DNA of 42,497 nucleotides, taken from positions 1 through 42,497 of IMG/VR virus record IMGVR_UViG_3300020161_002831; one strand, 5' to 3'. The translations under genes and the position numbers were made by a program. The stretch is from a virus. Taxonomy: Duplodnaviria > Caudoviricetes. Below the pieces are notes generated by a model. The model did no database searches. It worked only from the letters and a program-made list of their open reading frames with translations, and had not been told where the DNA came from. Shown piece by piece: positions 1,703 through 10,414 of this stretch. Every line of letters starts with the position of its first letter. The first letter of the stretch is position 1.

Positions 1703-2227
1703 TCAATCCATGTGAAAAACGACTGCGTGTGACGACTGCCCGATTTCGGCCGCCGCCATGCGATTACCAAGAAGAATGCACTTCCCATCCGGCAGTGAGC
1801 TTTCTTCAGACAAACGCCCGCCTGCGAACCAGTACGTACGCCGAGTACCCACCATTTTATTAACGGTTAATACTGATAGTGGCGCGCGCAACCAGTTCGC
1901 AAACTCTCGAATGTTCGGGACAAGAAGATGCGAGTAGATCGCACCACTTTTGGCCAGCTCAATCTGCGCGTTAAATAGCTGCTGTAACGGATGTGGGTCG
2001 GACTCCGCGATTTCTTCCATCTCGACATTCTGAAGAATCAGACGGGTATCCTCGACAACCTCGCTGAGCAGGGCTTCATCGGCCGTATGTTTCACCCACG
2101 TAACGACGAGCACGCCGCCGGGTCGAAATGACACCGCTTGCACGTCATGCACGAGCACCTGACGCACAATCTCGATGATGCTCTCCGGGTCACCGGGGCA
2201 CTGTAGTTGGGTGGATTCCTCTGTCAT
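1703..2227 (-). CDS. hypothetical protein
   Basis: 174 aa; ATGA overlap with upstream gene; carries a 15-bp palindrome read as VLTVN. Confidence 0.75.
   Translation of the reverse strand: MTEESTQLQCPGDPESIIEIVRQVLVHDVQAVSFRPGGVLVVTWVKHTADEALLSEVVEDTRLILQNVEMEEIAESDPHPLQQLFNAQIELAKSGAIYSHLLVPNIREFANWLRAPLSVLTVNKMVGTRRTYWFAGGRLSEESSLPDGKCILLGNRMAAAEIGQSSHAVVFHMD
1858..1872. repeat. 15-bp palindrome copy (intragenic)
   Basis: TATTAACGGTTAATA. Confidence 0.95.
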
Positions 2228-2397
2228 CGCCCTACCTGCTTCGCGTCAGGAACACGGCCACTATCGTGATTCTGCAACATGCGCATGTAGGCAATCACCA
2301 CTGCGGACATTGTAGTGCCGTTTTTCGCGCAGTGACTCTTGAACCAGTTGCGCAAGTCTTCCGGCACACGCGTCTGCATCATTACTTTTCTGGCCAT
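2224..2397 (-). CDS. ribbon-helix-helix (CopG/Arc/ParG-like) DNA-binding protein
   Basis: MARKVMMQTRVPEDLRNWFKSHCAKNGTTMSAVVIAYM fits the RHH strand-helix-G-x-T/S-helix pattern; AAGGA upstream of the ATG. The frame is open upstream to about 2898 with a CxxC...CxxC motif, so it may be a Zn-ribbon-RHH fusion. Confidence 0.6.
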   Translation of the reverse strand: MARKVMMQTRVPEDLRNWFKSHCAKNGTTMSAVVIAYMRMLQNHDSGRVPDAKQVGR

Positions 2398-2791
2398 GCT
2401 GCTCAATTCCTTATCTGTCGGTCGAGTGGTTTTCGGCGATGAGTTGTGCCATCCGACATAGGTGTGATTTTTGTGCACTACAAGGGAGCACCAACCGTCA
2501 AAGGTATCGGTGTTCTCTTCTCTATCTATGCGCAGGACACGACGTCGAAACTTCCGACGTAAATCACTCTTTGTCGCTTCTGGATGGATTGCTTTCAGTA
2601 GGACATCCGCCACTCCGACCAGCTGGCTGGCGTGCTCTCGAATCTGCTTACGTACGGGCCGGGTGTGCTTGCCTCCCACTACTCGTAACAAGGGAAGCCG
2701 CTCCGAATTACACGTTGCGCACTTTTTCCAGACAGGCTGGAATATGTCGACGAACGTCTGTCGAAGGCACAGACCGCAATACCAGACCAGT

Positions 2792-3118
2792 CTACGCTTG
2801 ACGGAAAACCGGCGCAGAAGAATCTGGTCCGTTTGTCTTCCGAGTGATGGTCTTGCGCTCGTCCCGGTTCGTCGCAGTGTCCGGCTCAGCGTTTTCATTC
2901 TCGTACGCCTGCGCAAAGAAATTCCCAAGAGCCTGCGTAGTCGCTACGTCCGTGGGAATCTCTAGGATTGACATATCCGCGGAGTCCATTACCTGGACCG
3001 ACGCCTCAACCACACCATCGATCGACACCCGCGTGCTGACCCCGATAATGAACAAGCGCGCTCTGGCCGCAAGTGCGCGGAGTTCGTCCAGTTCTTCCAT
3101 CGTGTCTGTGTTGCTCAT
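2792..3118 (-). CDS. hypothetical protein
   Basis: 108 aa; GAGG upstream; follows 3126..3401 by 7 nt. Confidence 0.6.
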   Translation of the reverse strand: MSNTDTMEELDELRALAARARLFIIGVSTRVSIDGVVEASVQVMDSADMSILEIPTDVATTQALGNFFAQAYENENAEPDTATNRDERKTITRKTNGPDSSAPVFRQA

Positions 3119-4919: not shown

Positions 4920-5576
4920 ATGCTGCGAGCAACTCTGGGCGAAGAAGAGACCGTGACCGTGCTGATTACGGACACGGCAGAGATGGGCGTTTACGAGTGC
5001 ACGCTGTGCGTCCTCCGTGACGACTGGCGGGTGTTCAGTTATGGTACCCTTCTACTGAAGGTGACCATGGACGGGAAAGACGCGATTATGGTGGGTAGGG
5101 CTGCCAAGCAGCTCATCCACCGTGAGACCGGTCGACCGGCCGAGGGATTCGTGGGGTCGCTGCTGGCGACCATCGCCGCGGCCGAACAAGCACAGCTGCA
5201 TTCGGAAGACAATCTCCGAAAGGTAATATCTCGGTGGTTCCACCAGGAGTACGACATCCCGGCGGGCATGGATTTGACACTGGTTCCGGTAGCGGAGCCG
5301 ACCGACCAAGACGGTCTGACGGCGGCGCTGCTGCGTGTGCCCGCGCAGCTTTCGCGCGAGGCCGCCTATCAGGGCCTCAGCGTCTGCATCGAAGAAGAGG
5401 TGCTGGAGGCGCTTGTCCTCCGGGACAATGTCGGTTGGGAGATCGTCGAGGGCAAACCTTGCGGGGAGTCTGACAACTTCCTCAGCTCCATGGGGACGCC
5501 GCCGGGGGTGGCGTTCCTCGTGAACACCCATGGGTACCGCTTCCAGCGCCGTTCCGCTCGTACGGCGCAGCGTTAG
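4920..5576 (+). CDS. hypothetical protein
   Basis: ATG 4920 with GGAG upstream; acidic, globular-looking 218 aa. Confidence 0.7.
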   Translation: MLRATLGEEETVTVLITDTAEMGVYECTLCVLRDDWRVFSYGTLLLKVTMDGKDAIMVGRAAKQLIHRETGRPAEGFVGSLLATIAAAEQAQLHSEDNLRKVISRWFHQEYDIPAGMDLTLVPVAEPTDQDGLTAALLRVPAQLSREAAYQGLSVCIEEEVLEALVLRDNVGWEIVEGKPCGESDNFLSSMGTPPGVAFLVNTHGYRFQRRSARTAQR

Positions 5577-5615
5577 CGGAAACACGCTCAGATAACGGGG
5601 TGCGATCCCGTTCTC

Positions 5616-5630
5616 TATTAACCGTTAATA
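5616..5630. repeat. 15-bp palindrome copy (intergenic)
   Basis: TATTAACCGTTAATA. Confidence 0.95.
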
Positions 5631-5658
5631 CTTTTTGCAGGAGGCATTACGCGTGTGC

Positions 5659-5697
5659 GCGTATACGTATGGGTATATAATACCCATACGTATACGC
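5659..5697. repeat. perfect 18-bp inverted repeat with 3-nt loop
   Basis: GCGTATACGTATGGGTAT-ATA-ATACCCATACGTATACGC. Confidence 0.95.
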
Positions 5698-5719
5698 ACA
5701 CAGTTCCCGAGCGCCAAGT

Positions 5720-5907
5720 AGTGTCAACACGCTTGTTGACACTCGGCTAGCGCAAAAACCGCAATGATTTCAAGTACTTAGCCGCCAAGGGCCACGAGCC
5801 CGCCAACACTCGTGGCAACAGCAATGTTGACACCTTTTCTGTAATAAAATCAGGTAGTTACGGCAATCGCGCCAACACAACGTACTGTCAACAAGCATGT
5901 TGACAGT
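5720..5907. repeat. left array: three TG(T/G)CAACA-N4-TGTTGACA palindromic boxes
   Basis: Boxes at 5721-5742, 5812-5833 and 5885-5906; a second motif at 5761-5781 and 5841-5861 lies between them. Confidence 0.9.
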
Positions 5908-5927
5908 CCCTCCTAGTGTGTTTACCC

Positions 5928-7016
5928 ATGTCCCAACGCGCTCCCTCGGCCAAGTTCATCAACCATGACGCTGACGATTGCACAGTCACCATCCTGGTGT
6001 TCAAGTCCAATGACTTGTCTGCTCCGGTAGGACATCTCTACTACGATCACTCTGATGACTCTTACTGGAAAGAAGACACACTCACTCCCATTGATATGGG
6101 GAAACTCGTTCTGTGGTCCTGTAACAACAACCTCTTCAGAACCAACTTCTACCTCCCGTACCGCTACGTAGATGCTGAAGTAGCGCAGCATCTTCGCGGA
6201 CTCGCGTCCTACAGAACTGAAGAACCTGCTGCAATTGCTCTCAGCTACTCAATCGCGCGTAACCCCATGTCTGCCAAGCAGAACTTCTCTCTCGACTTGG
6301 TAGAGGGGCAGGACTTCGTCGCGCGTATGAAGCGTGCCGGCTGGGTCACTCGTGAAGACAAGGTCGATACCGCACGTCTTGCTGAGCGTGTCGACAACGT
6401 AACGACGGCGCTACTGGACAGACTTCAGCGGGTGCAGACGTTCGTACTGAAGTGTGAAGAAGACGGCGCCGAGACACGCCTGCGTGCAGACAAAGTGCAA
6501 ACTGTAGGCAACAAGCACCGTACAGAGAGCAGTGCACTCTTTGTCGAGCTACAGGACATTAGCAACCAGCTGGAGCGCGCACGTGGGGAGTACACCGGAA
6601 TCGGGGAGATGACCCCACTGCTGGATGCCTTTGGCAGAGCTAACGAGATTGCTGCGCAGCTCCGACGACTGGACGTCAGCCGCGCTCTGCGCTCCTTCGC
6701 ATCGAAGGGCTCCGCTGAGAAGTGGAAAGAACACCGACTGTCCCTCCGCAAGTCCATCAACCTATCTGGAGAGCTAGCAGCCCTTGGGAAGATTTTCCCG
6801 GTGCTGGAGCTGATTGAGGTGCTGGACCAGGGCACGGACGCGCTAAAGCTCAGCCTACCTAACGGCGTGCACATCACACTCACACCCACCACTATCAAGC
6901 TCGACGGGCCTTCGGACTTGCTGCAAGCGCTGGTAGCAGGACATCAGATTGCGACAGGGCAGTCCGAGCACACGGGAATGGCGAGGAAGAAGATTGTCAG
7001 ACGGGCTAGTAAGTGA
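5928..7016 (+). CDS. hypothetical coiled-coil protein enclosed by mirror-image repeat arrays
   Basis: About 362 aa; central heptad-rich region; basic C-terminus ARKKIVRRASK; start uncertain (no clear RBS). Confidence 0.7.
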   Translation: MSQRAPSAKFINHDADDCTVTILVFKSNDLSAPVGHLYYDHSDDSYWKEDTLTPIDMGKLVLWSCNNNLFRTNFYLPYRYVDAEVAQHLRGLASYRTEEPAAIALSYSIARNPMSAKQNFSLDLVEGQDFVARMKRAGWVTREDKVDTARLAERVDNVTTALLDRLQRVQTFVLKCEEDGAETRLRADKVQTVGNKHRTESSALFVELQDISNQLERARGEYTGIGEMTPLLDAFGRANEIAAQLRRLDVSRALRSFASKGSAEKWKEHRLSLRKSINLSGELAALGKIFPVLELIEVLDQGTDALKLSLPNGVHITLTPTTIKLDGPSDLLQALVAGHQIATGQSEHTGMARKKIVRRASK

Positions 7017-7063
7017 GTGTAGGTGTAGGTAGTCGGCGAGGGTGAGAGAACTAGGAGGCCGTT

Positions 7064-7239
7064 TTGGCAACAAGCGTGTTGACACCCTTGCTACAGGACC
7101 TAACCCCGCGGAATCATTGCACTTTTGGTGGCAACAAGCGTGTTGACACTCAGGGGGCGTAATCTGCGCGCAGCGGCAGTAACACCAGCTAACCCCGCGG
7201 AATCATTACGCTTTAGGTGTCAACAAGCGTGTTGACACT
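7064..7239. repeat. right array: three TG(T/G)CAACA-AGCG-TGTTGACAC boxes plus two CTAACCCCGCGGAATCATT direct repeats
   Basis: Boxes at 7064-7085, 7128-7149 and 7217-7238; 19-bp direct repeats at 7100-7118 and 7189-7207. Confidence 0.92.
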
Positions 7240-7258
7240 GACGCCTGCCTGTATTTTT

Positions 7259-7289
7259 TGACGTATATACACTATGTGTATATACGTCA
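7259..7289. repeat. perfect 14-bp inverted repeat with 3-nt loop
   Basis: TGACGTATATACAC-TAT-GTGTATATACGTCA. Confidence 0.95.
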
Positions 7290-7295
7290 GACAGC

Positions 7296-7310
7296 TATTA
7301 ACGGTTAATA
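7296..7310. repeat. 15-bp palindrome copy (upstream of parB)
   Basis: TATTAACGGTTAATA. Confidence 0.95.
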
Positions 7311-7330
7311 AAAACCAATGTTCGTTTTTT

Positions 7331-7360
7331 ATGCAAATACCCAAACGACTTTGGTATAAC
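7331..7360 (+). promoter_or_regulatory. possible sigma70-type promoter for parB
   Basis: ATGCAA, 18 nt, TATAAC preceded by TGn (extended -10-like) in an AT-rich tract about 110 nt upstream of parB. Confidence 0.3.
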
Positions 7361-7468
7361 AACTTTGCACGCGGTCATTACTGTCGCCGTCGTACATGCC
7401 TTATGGGCAAACCTGTCGACCGCGTTTTCCGCCCGAGAGGGCATTCCAGCAGAAGAAGGAAGAGCACA

Positions 7469-8602
7469 ATGGGTCAGCTTGGCAAGACCAGCGTTTCGCT
7501 CCACGACATCAACGTGGAGCAGTTCCCGAACATCCGCAGCAACATGGACCCGGGGTCGTTGCGCAATCTCGCGCTCGACATCTTCTCGAACGGGATCATC
7601 TATAGCCCCATCGTGACGCTGCTGCCCGCCGAGGGTGGCGAAGGCGAGGTGCCTTGCCTCGCAGCCGGATTCCGGCGGGTTCAGGCCCTCAAGAACCTGG
7701 AGGCGATGATCATCGACCACAACCAGCGACTGGCCGCGGGGGACGATGGTTTCAAGGACACGGACGACTCGTACCCCTTCGACAAGGTCCCCGGTGGGGA
7801 ACCGCTGGTCTTCGAGTACGACATCATCGACGTCGAGCTGTGCGCCCCGGAGGAGGTGCAGAGCATCCAGTTCCGCGAGAACATGCAGAGAGAGGACCTC
7901 AACATCATGGACCGCATCAGTGCGGTCTGTGGGTTCCTGGCCTCCGGCGTGACGCAGAACGACCTCGCGCAGATGTCCAACATCACGCAGTCGCTGATCT
8001 CGCAGTACAACACGGTGTTCACCGGCTGCATCAGCGACGTGCACGATGCGCTCCGCGCGGATCAGATCCGGTTCCGCGACGCGCTCGCCATCTCCAAGCT
8101 CCGCCTGGAGAACAAGAAGCCCGCTGTGCGGGAGCAGCGCCTCGCCCTCGACAAGCTCATCAACAAGCCCGAGAAGTCGAGCGTCGAGGGCGAGAAGAAG
8201 CGCTCGCTCGCGGACCTTCGCAAGCTGCGCCTCACGCTCAGCAACGAGCAGAACTACGCCGACGCGTCGGGTGAGCGGAAGCGCATCATCCAGGAGACGC
8301 TGACCTTCCTCGACAACCCGGACCTCACGGAAGAGGTGCTGGTCTACGGTGGTGGCGATACGCCCATCGACATCACGGTGAACATGCCTGAGCCCCCGCC
8401 CGAGAAGGTGGTCAAGGAGAAGAAGCCCGCCAAGGAGAAGGCCCCCAAGAAGGAGAAGGCGGCCAAGGGTGCGAAGGGCACCAAGGGCACCAAGGGCACC
8501 AAGACGACGACGGCTCCCGCCGCCGCCAGCCCCGCGACCGACACGGCGAAGGCCCCGACGGCGGCGCGCAAGATCGTCCGCGCGGCGAAGCCCACGGCCT
8601 GA
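7469..8602 (+). CDS. parB: ParB/RepB/Spo0J-family protein with Lys/Ala-rich histone-H1-like tail
   Basis: NIR, GIIYSPIV, LAAGFRRVQAL (GxRR box), ENMQREDLN, HTH GVTQNDLAQMSNITQSLISQY; AAGGAAG RBS; strongly GC3-biased codons. Confidence 0.88.
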   Translation: MGQLGKTSVSLHDINVEQFPNIRSNMDPGSLRNLALDIFSNGIIYSPIVTLLPAEGGEGEVPCLAAGFRRVQALKNLEAMIIDHNQRLAAGDDGFKDTDDSYPFDKVPGGEPLVFEYDIIDVELCAPEEVQSIQFRENMQREDLNIMDRISAVCGFLASGVTQNDLAQMSNITQSLISQYNTVFTGCISDVHDALRADQIRFRDALAISKLRLENKKPAVREQRLALDKLINKPEKSSVEGEKKRSLADLRKLRLTLSNEQNYADASGERKRIIQETLTFLDNPDLTEEVLVYGGGDTPIDITVNMPEPPPEKVVKEKKPAKEKAPKKEKAAKGAKGTKGTKGTKTTTAPAAASPATDTAKAPTAARKIVRAAKPTA

Positions 8603-8605
8603 GAA

Positions 8606-8620
8606 TATTAACGGTTAATA
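8606..8620. repeat. 15-bp palindrome copy (3 nt after parB stop)
   Basis: TATTAACGGTTAATA. Confidence 0.95.
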
Positions 8621-8644
8621 CCCGTTAAGGATTCCACAAGCAAG

Positions 8645-8698: not shown

Positions 8699-10414
8699 AT
8701 GCCCTCAAGCGAGCAGACGCTACAGACCCATCTGGACGCGACCACACCGCTCATTTGTATTCAGACATTCGAAGAGGCGAGAGTAATCGCTTACATGAAG
8801 GCGTACATCAGCACGCAATTCATGGAGCATCGCACAAAGGGTCATCTCTGGTTCTGGTCACTGACCGAAGGTTTGCAGCTGCTAGCTGCTCCGCTGGGTA
8901 GCGCCGAGCAGGTTGACATCAGCATGCGGCGGGAACTGCAGAAGAACAACATCGACCTGGAAAACGATCCGAAGTCGGGGCTTCCACGCTGCACCCGCGC
9001 CGATATGATGCAAGTGCTCACCGCCGCGATCAACCATCTCAAGATGGGAATTGGTGCGACCGACGGATCCGCCGAGACGGACGCGGTGCACACCTGGGTG
9101 TTCGCGGATGGCACGCAGTTCCTGACAAAAGGCAACGCGTATCCGATGCAGCGCAAGCTGCGAGATTTCTACCAGTACGCGATGGACTCTTCGGCCACGC
9201 ACCGCTGCATCATCCTCGATCCAAACTTCGAGTCGCCCGACCGAATGGACAAAGTGATGAGTGTCATTCGGTGGGACCTCCCAAACCGTGAAGCGATCCG
9301 CCGACTCATCGATGAGTGGAAGGTACGCCTCGACGTGGACCTTCCAATCGGCACAAGCTACGACCGCCTGATTGACGCGCTACTCGGCCTGAGCGCCCAC
9401 GAAATCTGCCGAGTGTTTCAGCTGAGCGTCGCAGTGCGTGGCACCTTCACGGCGGAGTTCGCCCTCAAAGAGAAGGAGGACATCATCCAGAAGTCCGGCC
9501 TTCTGCGTCACTACAGTTCCATCGGTGGGTTGGACAAGATCGGCGGTCTGGAGAACCTGAAAAGCTGGCTGGCCGTACGTCGCAACGCTTTCGGTGAGCG
9601 TGCCCGCGAATTCGGCCTAAACATCCCGAAGGGTGTCATGGTCGCCGGTGTGGCCGGCACAGGAAAGACGCTGGTGGCCAAGTGCATCGGTGCCGCGTGG
9701 GGCATGCCGGTCTTGCACTTGGACGTAGGCTCGCTGATGAACTCCTACCTGGGCGAATCCGAGGGTCGCTTGCGCAAAGCCCTTGCCGTAGCCGACGCCA
9801 TGGCGCCTTGCATTCTGTTCGTGGATGAGGCAGAGAAGGCGTTTGGCGGATCCGGTGGAGAGCGTGACGGCGGCACAGGCGGACGTCTACTCGGAACGTG
9901 GCTGACCTGGATGAATGACCACGAGTCCGAGGTCTTCACAGTGATGACCGCGAACCGAGTCTGGTCGCTTCCTCCAGAGTTCCTGCGGGCAGGTCGCTTC
10001 GACGCGGTGTTCTTCGTCGACTTGCCCAACCGAAAGGAGCGCGAGGCAATCCTCCGGGTGCATCTGCGGAACCGCAATCGTGACGCGGACGACAAGGTGC
10101 AGTTCCCCGATCTCAGTCGTGTTGCAGACCTACTGGAAGGCTATACTGGCGCGGAGATTGAGGGCGTGGTGAACGCCGCTATGTTCGTCGCCTTCAACTC
10201 CAACAATCCGCTCAACCAAGAAGCGCTCGTCAGTTGCGCCTCGGCGGTGGTCCCGCTCTCAATCACCATGGGAGAGGAAATCGAGAAGCTGCGTGAATGG
10301 GGTAAGGCGCGCGCTATCACCGCGTCGGCGACTTCTACCTCGGAAGCGACAACAGCCGTTCCTCCGGTGGGTAACGGACTCAAGAAAGTGTTTCGGCGGC
10401 CAGGACAAGCATGA
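8699..10414 (+). CDS. AAA+ ATPase, Ycf46-like
   Basis: Degenerate N-terminal AAA domain, IGGLENLKSWL, Walker A GVAGTGKT, Walker B ILFVDEAEK, SRH TANRVWSLPPEFLRAGRFD. Confidence 0.88.
   Translation: MPSSEQTLQTHLDATTPLICIQTFEEARVIAYMKAYISTQFMEHRTKGHLWFWSLTEGLQLLAAPLGSAEQVDISMRRELQKNNIDLENDPKSGLPRCTRADMMQVLTAAINHLKMGIGATDGSAETDAVHTWVFADGTQFLTKGNAYPMQRKLRDFYQYAMDSSATHRCIILDPNFESPDRMDKVMSVIRWDLPNREAIRRLIDEWKVRLDVDLPIGTSYDRLIDALLGLSAHEICRVFQLSVAVRGTFTAEFALKEKEDIIQKSGLLRHYSSIGGLDKIGGLENLKSWLAVRRNAFGERAREFGLNIPKGVMVAGVAGTGKTLVAKCIGAAWGMPVLHLDVGSLMNSYLGESEGRLRKALAVADAMAPCILFVDEAEKAFGGSGGERDGGTGGRLLGTWLTWMNDHESEVFTVMTANRVWSLPPEFLRAGRFDAVFFVDLPNRKEREAILRVHLRNRNRDADDKVQFPDLSRVADLLEGYTGAEIEGVVNAAMFVAFNSNNPLNQEALVSCASAVVPLSITMGEEIEKLREWGKARAITASATSTSEATTAVPPVGNGLKKVFRRPGQA

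What the first reader, a model, noticed from the sequence alone, without database searches (positions are those of the whole stretch)
5616..7310. Mirror-symmetric cis-element cassette enclosing one orphan gene
Seen: left side = 15-bp palindrome (5616), long hairpin (5659-5697), three TG(T/G)CAACA-N4-TGTTGACA boxes (5721, 5812, 5885). Right side is the reverse order: three boxes (7064, 7128, 7217), hairpin (7259-7289), 15-bp palindrome (7296). The outer boxes form a perfect 23-bp inverted repeat (5720-5742 vs 7217-7239), including the asymmetric AGCG core. Outer-to-middle spacing is 91 vs 89 bp. A second motif (about STAA-N7-RAATCATTRC) sits between boxes twice per side, also inverted (5761, 5841 vs 7100, 7189); the 5841 copy contains an IHF-like AATCAG-N4-TTA. 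The cassette is next to parB and near the strand switch at about 4.45 kb. Inference: paired inverted replication origins around their initiator gene, a bipartite centromere, or recombination/inversion ends with an unrecognised enzyme. No transposase or recombinase motif is visible in the enclosed gene.
Basis: partly seen in the sequence, partly recalled or inferred. Interest (0 to 1): 0.82.

Follow-up and report, generated by a model that had tools for sequence, protein, structure and literature searches.

The report
Mirror operator arrays around phage gene
In a clade of uncultured ~180-kb bacteriophages, two mirror-image sets of three palindromic DNA boxes with fixed spacing flank one conserved gene; they are likely bound by a phage repressor-type protein, helped by the host DNA-bending protein IHF, to tie that gene into a regulatory loop reminiscent of phage lambda's switch, with a replication origin as the main untested alternative.

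Summary
The cassette is real and not an assembly artefact. Six 20-bp boxes occur only here (0.3 matches expected), and one contig spans them all. The enclosed gene X is not an orphan: 34 representatives, several on 170-190-kb contigs. A 3+3 mirror array flanks X in 9 of 10 related phage lineages although the box sequence changes. An IHF-like TTA lies at a fixed distance from the outer box in 21 of 22 spacers. X never flips (10 of 10). No integrase, resolvase, DDE transposase, protelomerase or ParA was found in the relatives searched. The likely binder is a conserved Xre-HTH gene elsewhere in the genome: four genomes carry a seventh box just upstream of it, and its recognition helix changes where the boxes change while ParB's does not. 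In 7 of 7 lower-GC (48-50%) relatives the inner left box overlaps a promoter-like -10. Best reading: lambda OL/OR-like looped operators (0.43); rival: origin (0.25).

The parts
5722..5741 (.). Left outer 20-bp palindromic box (A)
   Evidence: arms unchanged in the 40 of 56 differences shown for 4 strains
5813..5832 (.). Left middle box (B)
5886..5905 (.). Left inner box (C), 22 nt before the ATG of X; in lower-GC relatives this box overlaps the predicted start site of a TG-TATAAG promoter
   Evidence: strain differences only in its 4-nt core (5894, 5897)
7065..7084 (.). Right inner box (C')
7129..7148 (.). Right middle box (B')
7218..7237 (.). Right outer box (A'); perfect 23-bp inverted repeat with box A
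5763..5780 (+). IHF-like site 1 (8 of 9 consensus positions); its TTA is 36 nt from box A, about one helical turn further than in all other spacers
5848..5860 (+). IHF-like site 2 (9 of 9 to WATCAR-N4-TTR); 5853 G>A in all four related strains keeps the consensus
   Evidence: consensus from PMC10201428
7101..7118 (-). Mirror copy of the inter-box motif (weaker IHF match; TTA 25 nt from box B')
7190..7207 (-). Mirror copy of the inter-box motif (TTA 25 nt from box A')
5654..5702 (.). Long hairpin/cruciform, no U-run; compensatory 5663/5693 change in one strain; seen only in the window's close relatives
7259..7289 (.). Right hairpin; shares ACGTAT at the same distance from the loop as the left one
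5616..5630 (.). One of 22 genome-wide TATTAAC-S-GTTAATA sites; brackets the cassette but is not specific to it
7296..7310 (.). Second bracketing copy of the genome-wide 15-mer
5928..7016 (+). Gene X, 362 aa, clade-conserved family; predicted N-terminal alpha/beta domain, three-helix bundle, small C-terminal alpha/beta domain, basic tail; function not established
7469..8602 (+). ParB/Spo0J/Noc-family gene (start inferred), first gene of the operon ParB - AAA ATPase - RecA-like - DUF2997 - radical SAM that follows the right array

Best explanation
The cassette is two mirror-image arrays of three 20-bp palindromic boxes with phase-locked IHF-like sites, likely bound by dimers of the phage's conserved Xre-family HTH protein and predicted to pair across gene X into a ~1.1-kb loop that would control the X promoter and the downstream parB-AAA operon, in the manner of lambda OL/OR. 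Shown: the arrays, their conservation, their single position per genome, fixed spacing, invariant orientation, and a promoter-like motif overlapped by the inner left box in the lower-GC subgroup. Inferred: that the Xre-HTH is the binder (lone box upstream of its gene; helix/box co-change), that IHF binds, that the arms synapse, and that the output is transcriptional. Proposed steps: host IHF folds each arm so that the outer box or boxes meet the inner box 70-75 bp (about 7 turns) away; cooperative HTH dimers load on each arm; the arms join; the promoterless right inner box stabilises occupancy of the left inner box over the X start site, as OL3 does for OR3; the same protein limits its own gene through a single box.
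For: 3+3 mirror boxes around X in 9 of 10 distinct lineages: window, L118, L119, L120, L121 (=L122, L123), L161, L162, L163, L166 (degenerate boxes). In seven the layout is 2 adjacent boxes (21-22 bp) + 72-74 bp + 1 box, exactly mirrored. Boxes are confined to this locus in complete genomes G003 and G004. TTR at offset 23-26 from the outer box in 21 of 22 spacers (shuffle mean 3.6, max 10 of 5000; other strand 2); the offset was chosen on the first 14 spacers and then held in 8 of 8 new ones. GGTATAAG lies 3-5 nt before the inner left box in 7 of 7 lower-GC lineages and not on the right arms; the same motif precedes the HTH operon in five genomes. A strict box lies about 40-80 nt upstream of the Xre-HTH gene in G002, G006, G008 and G009 (0.15-0.17 chance boxes per genome). 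Recognition helix (S/N)RETxRx(Y/I)E goes with TGACA-N10-TGTCA boxes; G007 has R>A and its boxes relax positions 2-3 (G99/A97 to A42/A58) while its ParB helix is unchanged; G001 and G005 have other helices and other boxes; in G005 the HTH homolog lies right behind the array. Lambda precedent: two sets of three operators 2.3 kb apart, OL3 aiding PRM repression through the loop (PMC3708714 passages).
Against: No promoter consensus was found in the window's own arms, and none was evident in L118. The window's HTH gene lies outside the 42-kb fragment, so co-variation could not be tested for this phage. The upstream box is absent in G003, G004, G007 and G001; the four genomes that have it are related and it sits at a homologous place in a short ORF, so it is about one event. 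G002 and G008 each have one further strict box elsewhere (81237; 129387). The helix/box co-change in G007 is a single event. Unlike cI, neither X nor a neighbour encodes the repressor in 9 of 10 lineages. In L171 there is no array upstream of X and both arms lie downstream. The phages have their own RNA polymerase and no integrase, so no lysogenic switch is evident. The WATCAR half of the IHF consensus is weak in many spacers (6-7 of 9; overall p 0.009). Strict mirror phasing on the promoterless right arm is as typical of origins and recombination sites as of operators.
Confidence: 0.43

Rival explanations
1. Bipartite, bidirectional replication origin: the Xre-HTH acts as an autoregulated initiator/organiser on two IHF-bent arrays, and the left-arm promoter and hairpins help open the DNA for the phage DnaB/primase/Pol A.
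For: Single copy per genome, mirror symmetry, iterated boxes with IHF-like sites, next to parB. The HTH gene heads the helicase-primase-polymerase block, and one box at an initiator's own gene is usual for plasmid Rep proteins (recalled). In L171 the whole symmetric array is a 400-bp stretch of 30-35% GC that does not enclose X. The window's arms are 49% GC against 59%.
Against: No leading/lagging GC skew switch at X at fourfold-degenerate sites in 4 complete genomes (rank 81/87, 65/91, 56/91, 67/90; all signals weak). No conserved AT-rich unwinding element was seen. The hairpins are not conserved: several relatives have terminator-like stems there. I recall no Xre-type initiator.
Confidence: 0.25
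2. P1-parS-like bipartite centromere bound by the adjacent ParB with IHF.
For: ParB is adjacent in 9 of 10 lineages and has intact CTP motifs and an HTH. P1 parS is boxes around an IHF site (PMC5016525 passage).
Against: No ParA (PF13614) in 0 of 4 records, 2 complete. The ParB helix is unchanged in G007 where the boxes change. A better ParB candidate exists: the 14-15-bp genome-wide palindrome, whose invariant TATTA half-site parallels the invariant Q174/S178 of ParB.
Confidence: 0.08
3. Recombination or transposon-type ends (inversion or excision of X, or opening of the genome) used by an unrecognised or host enzyme.
For: 3+3 inverted sites with an IHF site between two of them is the layout of VchCAST/Tn7-like ends (PMC10201428 passages). 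Box cores match across X in the window and in L118.
Against: X is co-oriented with parB in 10 of 10 lineages and in the close strains; no joints in 4 of 4 runs in either lay (contigs drop rare variants). No PF00589 or PF00239 (0 of 4 records), no PF00665 or PF16684 (0 of 5). X has no invariant catalytic set (invariants F120, G327). Cores vary freely in the lower-GC group.
Confidence: 0.07
4. Packaging/terminus site: the arrays mark the two edges of a terminal repeat, or a cos/pac-like region for the small terminase with IHF.
For: Single copy; the terminase has a lambda gpA-like ATPase hit; IHF-assisted multi-box cos/pac sites are known (recalled).
Against: The boxes track the Xre-HTH and one lies at its gene. 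No contig end falls at X in the records fetched. The cassette splits a co-oriented gene run.
Confidence: 0.07

Closest known systems
Phage lambda OL/OR immunity region (CI-looped triple operators)
   Same: Two sets of three palindromic boxes in mirror order enclosing a gene; two adjacent boxes plus one; an inner box over the enclosed gene's promoter; a promoterless partner box on the far side; Xre/lambda-repressor-type HTH as likely binder (PMC3708714 passages; PMC5880393 search listing only).
   Different: Loop 1.1 kb, not 2.3 kb; boxes 70-75 bp apart with an IHF-like site between; the enclosed gene is not the repressor; the repressor candidate lies about 50 kb away; no integrase, own RNA polymerase.
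VchCAST / Tn7-like transposon ends
   Same: Three binding sites per end, inverted, IHF site between two sites (PMC10201428 passages).
   Different: Boxes are palindromic, both arms carry the IHF-like site, no DDE transposase detected, fixed locus and orientation.
P1 parS-IHF-ParB segrosome
   Same: Boxes around an IHF site beside a parB gene (PMC5016525 passage).
   Different: One box type, two arms 1.1 kb apart, no ParA detected, boxes do not follow the ParB helix.
Scattered ParB-family sites (RK2 KorB OB, N15 centromeres, B. subtilis Noc boxes) - for the genome-wide 15-mer only
   Same: Short palindromes scattered over the genome with a ParB/Noc-family gene (scattering stated in PMC5016525; Noc among the PDB hits; operator geometry recalled).
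   Different: One site per 2-4 kb with sub-random, even spacing over a ~180-kb phage genome that lacks ParA; binding untested.

Membership tests
Lambda OL/OR-type looped operator system | Two mirror-ordered sets of three palindromic operators flanking a gene | tested here: met
   9 of 10 lineages
Lambda OL/OR-type looped operator system | Lambda-repressor/Xre-type HTH protein that matches the operators | tested here: inconclusive
   Conserved HTH_3 protein, upstream box in 4 related genomes, one helix/box co-change; no binding data; gene not in the window
Lambda OL/OR-type looped operator system | Repressor gene inside the loop | tested here: not met
   X is not an HTH repressor; the HTH gene lies far away except in G005
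Lambda OL/OR-type looped operator system | Operators overlap promoters | tested here: inconclusive
   -10-like motif before the inner left box in 7 of 7 lower-GC lineages; none found in the window
Lambda OL/OR-type looped operator system | Protein-mediated loop between the arrays | not testable with these tools
   needs TPM/AFM/3C
Lambda OL/OR-type looped operator system | Lysis-lysogeny switch of an integrating phage | tested here: not met
   no PF00589 or PF00239 in 4 records, 2 complete
Invertible segment / transposon ends | Cognate tyrosine, serine or DDE enzyme | tested here: not met
   a divergent or host enzyme is not excluded
Invertible segment / transposon ends | Both orientations or variable location | tested here: not met
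   10 of 10 same orientation and place; no joints
Type Ia ParABS (P1 parS) | ParB with CTP-binding domain and HTH | tested here: met
Type Ia ParABS (P1 parS) | Cognate ParA ATPase | tested here: not met
   PF13614 0 of 4 records
Type Ia ParABS (P1 parS) | Boxes are the ParB sites | tested here: inconclusive
   co-variation points away from ParB, single event
Iteron/IHF replication origin | Strand-skew switch or coverage peak at the site | tested here: inconclusive
   no GC4 switch at X in 4 genomes but the signal is weak everywhere; no raw reads listed
Iteron/IHF replication origin | Recognisable initiator and unwinding element | tested here: inconclusive
   no initiator family among 149 G004 proteins scanned of about 200 ORFs; no fold match for X's N- and C-terminal domains, which were barely tested

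The most novel reading that the evidence does not exclude
The mirror cassette is the single organising centre (origin) of a clade of ~180-kb RNA-polymerase-encoding phages, assembled by a small Xre-type protein and host IHF. A ParA-less ParB clamp loads at evenly spaced palindromes every 2-4 kb and coats the whole genome. Together these would be a chromosome-like architecture in a phage, with a new kind of initiator and a Noc/KorB-like genome coat.
Probability: 0.22. Interest if true: 0.86.

Novelty: new variant of a known kind. Interest (0 to 1): 0.62.

Why it matters
Long-range looping between triple operators is a textbook feature of lambda. Here a similar 3+3 design, with added phase-locked IHF-like bends, has been kept across phages whose enclosed proteins are only 20-30% identical, that lack an integrase and carry their own RNA polymerase. 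The site sequence, the candidate binder and a natural specificity variant (G007) are all in hand, so the system can be tested in vitro without culturing the phage. The same work exposes a second clade-wide feature, an evenly spaced palindrome that gives a concrete candidate site for the unexplained ParA-less ParB proteins of large phages.

Tried and rejected
Assembly artefact: rejected (conserved in relatives). 15-mer as a cassette end: rejected as specific; it lies within about 110 nt of both ends in the window and G001 but not in the 5 other genomes checked. DNA pattern scans for paired boxes: 0 in viral contigs; about 880 stretches estimated in metagenomes, of which the 115 pattern loci read (plus 2 unrelated loci) showed no related cassette. 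X searches that found nothing: viral and metagenome scans with the single protein or A1, A3, ESM Atlas twice, Pfam/PHROGs for 35 members (only sporadic weak hits), PDB sequence (coiled-coil hits only; N-terminal domain none), Foldseek pdb and viral (no E<=0.001), VIA-align (generic three-helix bundles, Z up to 12.2), cultured phages. A HARP-like look of X's N-terminal domain was an impression from memory and got no support. First AlphaFold run with 4 sequences failed (pLDDT 45). The ParB scan of viral contigs gave two low-complexity hits (L001, L002), dropped. No prophage relative in genome contigs. L160 and L165 end before X and were left out of the count of 10. Upstream gene U is conserved in position but has no family or structure hit. 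No phage IHF/HU gene (0 of 5). No RNA holder listed. Contig depths over X were not used as evidence. Literature searches that found no description of this element or clade: (open-access library only). No complex prediction was run.

Full report
Setting. The window is a whole 42.5-kb virus record with a terminase, a head protease-like gene, a SNF2 helicase and, behind the cassette, ParB, an AAA ATPase, a RecA-like gene, DUF2997 and a radical SAM gene. The closest cultured phages match only at about 25-27% identity (Salmonella phage Arash, Vibrio D69 group, Bacillus phages), and no cultured phage matched the X relative used as query.

Observation. The boxes occur nowhere else in the window (0.30 matches expected). 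One contig of run X1, possibly the source sample, crosses the cassette with one difference; a contig from another study (X2) spans 5508-8364 at about 94% identity in the same orientation; no joints were listed. Over 5585-5935 four strains at about 92% identity differ in the flanks and box cores. Among the 40 of 56 differences shown, none falls in a box arm, the 15-mer or the first IHF-like motif; one strain has a compensatory pair in the long hairpin; all four have G>A at 5853, which keeps the IHF consensus. Two parts of the description fail. The 15-bp palindrome has 22 copies through the window. The enclosed gene has a family of 34 representatives, of which one (P0039) is a repeat-type hit left out of the alignment; members lie on contigs of 172-190 kb.

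Relatives. Scans of IMG/VR gave X loci in ten distinct lineages, counting the window (L122/L123 are identical to L121; L160 and L165 end before X). Gene order U - X - ParB - AAA - RecA-like - DUF2997 - radical SAM is kept, and X points toward parB in all ten. Nine have three boxes on each side of X, with the box sequence changed by lineage: TGTCAACA-N4-TGTTGACA (window), TGACCACA-N4-TGTGGTCA (L118, whose outer left box has a 6-nt core), TGACA-N10-TGTCA (L119-L121, L161-L163), and a relaxed form in L166. In the seven lower-GC lineages the layout is rigid: two boxes 21-22 bp apart, a 72-74-bp step, one box, gene X, then the exact mirror. The exception, L171, has no array upstream of X but a mirror-symmetric, 30-35% GC array with its own 22-bp box directly downstream, followed by two HTH-like genes and then ParB. 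Whether it is the same element is not proven; it shares one exact 15-mer with the window's right arm. In complete genomes G003 and G004 the strict box occurs only at the cassette; G006 has one more and G002 two more.

Inter-box motif. Read from the outer box inward, a TTA/TTG lies at offset 23-26 in 21 of 22 spacers, on both arms in mirror orientation (shuffle mean 3.6, maximum 10; other strand 2). The one miss is the window's first spacer, where it sits 11 bp further. The offset was picked on 14 spacers and held in the 8 added later. An A- or T-tract precedes it in many spacers. The match to the IHF consensus WATCAR-N4-TTR (PMC10201428, passages) is 8-9 of 9 in five of the 14 spacers and 6-7 in the rest (overall p 0.009). 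The phages encode no IHF/HU (0 of 5), so a host protein is inferred.

What is missing. No tyrosine or serine recombinase and no ParA in 4 records (2 complete); no rve-type transposase and no protelomerase in 5 records (4 complete), with controls ringing. G004 encodes Pol A, primase, DnaB, RecA and a sigma-like protein (149 of about 200 ORFs scanned), and 5 of 5 records encode an RNA polymerase beta subunit. X folds confidently (pLDDT 83) into an alpha/beta domain, a three-helix bundle and a small alpha/beta domain, with no catalytic invariants and no specific fold match (the end domains were barely tested). Fourfold-site GC skew does not switch at X in four complete genomes; the test is weak.

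Who binds the boxes. An Xre/HTH_3 gene is a core gene at the head of the helicase-primase-polymerase block, divergent from the RNA polymerase operon. A profile scan found that the only strong box outside the cassette in G002 and G006 lies 40-70 nt upstream of this gene. G008 and G009 have it too; G003, G004, G007 and G001 do not. About 0.15-0.17 strict boxes are expected per genome by chance, and G002 and G008 each have one further copy elsewhere. The four positives are related, so this is roughly one event, though the codon under the box's variable part changes while the arms stay. The recognition helix reads (S/N)RETxRx(Y/I)E where the boxes are TGACA-N10-TGTCA. G007 has R>A and its boxes lose conservation at positions 2-3 while its ParB helix is unchanged. 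G001 and G005 have different helices and different boxes, and in G005 the homolog lies behind the array. This is circumstantial, and the window's own HTH gene is not in the fragment.

Mechanism. In 7 of 7 lower-GC lineages GGTATAAG sits just before the inner left box, so that box would cover the X start site; the right arm has no such motif. That asymmetry inside a symmetric array is what lambda shows: two sets of three operators, an octamer on the paired ones, and OL3 helping OR3 repress PRM through the loop (PMC3708714, passages). I therefore commit to IHF-assisted looped operators controlling X and the parB operon (0.43). It works like OL/OR but is not a member: the repressor is not in the loop and there is no integrase. 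The main rival is an origin with an autoregulated initiator (0.25), favoured by single copy, the HTH gene's position and L171, and disfavoured by the skew test. Centromere, recombination ends and packaging termini are each below 0.1.

The 15-mer. TATTA-N4/N5-TAATA is the top or second over-represented spaced palindrome in all seven relatives examined. Its spacing is more even than random in the window (CV 0.44), G001 (0.48), G002, G003, G005, G006 and G007, but not G004. It is enriched outside ORFs and before gene starts (11 of 22 against 2.8 expected in the window) but also sits inside genes, mostly in one reading frame. ParB is a Spo0J/Noc-family protein with invariant Q and S in the recognition helix, parallel to the invariant half-site; scattered ParB-family sites are known (PMC5016525, passages). 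A role with the phage RNA polymerase is the rival. This is untested and deserves its own follow-up.

Novelty. Five full-text searches of the open library found no description of the cassette or the clade (listings only). The Arash paper (passages) does not mention ParB, and its passages give no genome termini. No supplements were read; supplementary annotations of large-phage surveys could bear on the claim that this is undescribed. The scan's index has no look-alike stretch and no note on the dispersed motif; two notes on paired IHF-like sites in other marine phages describe a different, multi-copy design. The host is unknown; a MopE/VWA gene in G004 hints at Myxococcota (my inference).

Noticed in passing
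window 1858, 3536, 5616, 7296, 8606 ... 41494 (22 sites); G001-G007 genome-wide: Evenly spaced palindrome TATTA-N4/5-TAATA, one per 2-4 kb, spacing CV 0.44-0.71 against about 0.95 random in most genomes; candidate site for the ParA-less ParB, or an element for the phage RNA polymerase.
   Followed up: partly
L171:18030-18430 (G005): Mirror-symmetric 400-bp AT-rich array with its own 22-bp box and two copies of the dispersed-type palindrome, between X and two HTH-like genes; no array upstream of X.
   Followed up: partly
G002 87404, G006 176455, G008 56930, G009 91634: Lone cassette-type box upstream of the conserved Xre-HTH gene, inside a short upstream ORF.
   Followed up: yes
L119:5705-8940 and the same place in L118, L120, L121: Operon ending in a ThiF/E1-like gene (Pfam hit in G004), with ubiquitin-like, E2-like and JAB-like genes by my reading of the sequences, upstream of U-X; absent at this place in the window.
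   Followed up: no
window 6980-7016, 8560-8602, 10380-10414: X, ParB and the AAA ATPase all end in a similar basic tail (KKIVRR, RKIVR, KKVFRR), also in relatives; could be a shared targeting or degradation tag.
   Followed up: no
G001, G003, G004, G006, G007 (e.g. G004 74330-80605): A 2100-2500-aa RNA polymerase beta-containing protein plus a sigma-like gene next to the terminase: these phages have their own multisubunit RNA polymerase.
   Followed up: partly
runs X5 and X10, 4692-nt contig: A contig carrying the 15-mer and matching window 8604-8631 about 3.7 kb further on, with other sequence between; probably another part of the same phage family's genome.
   Followed up: no
window 2224-2928 (-): Conserved gene whose G004 homolog has a C-terminal ribbon-helix-helix hit (RHH_10); another candidate DNA binder in the clade.
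   Followed up: no
G001 terminase (1002 aa vs 551) and polymerase (932 aa vs 639): Much longer than in relatives; possible inteins or insertions.
   Followed up: no
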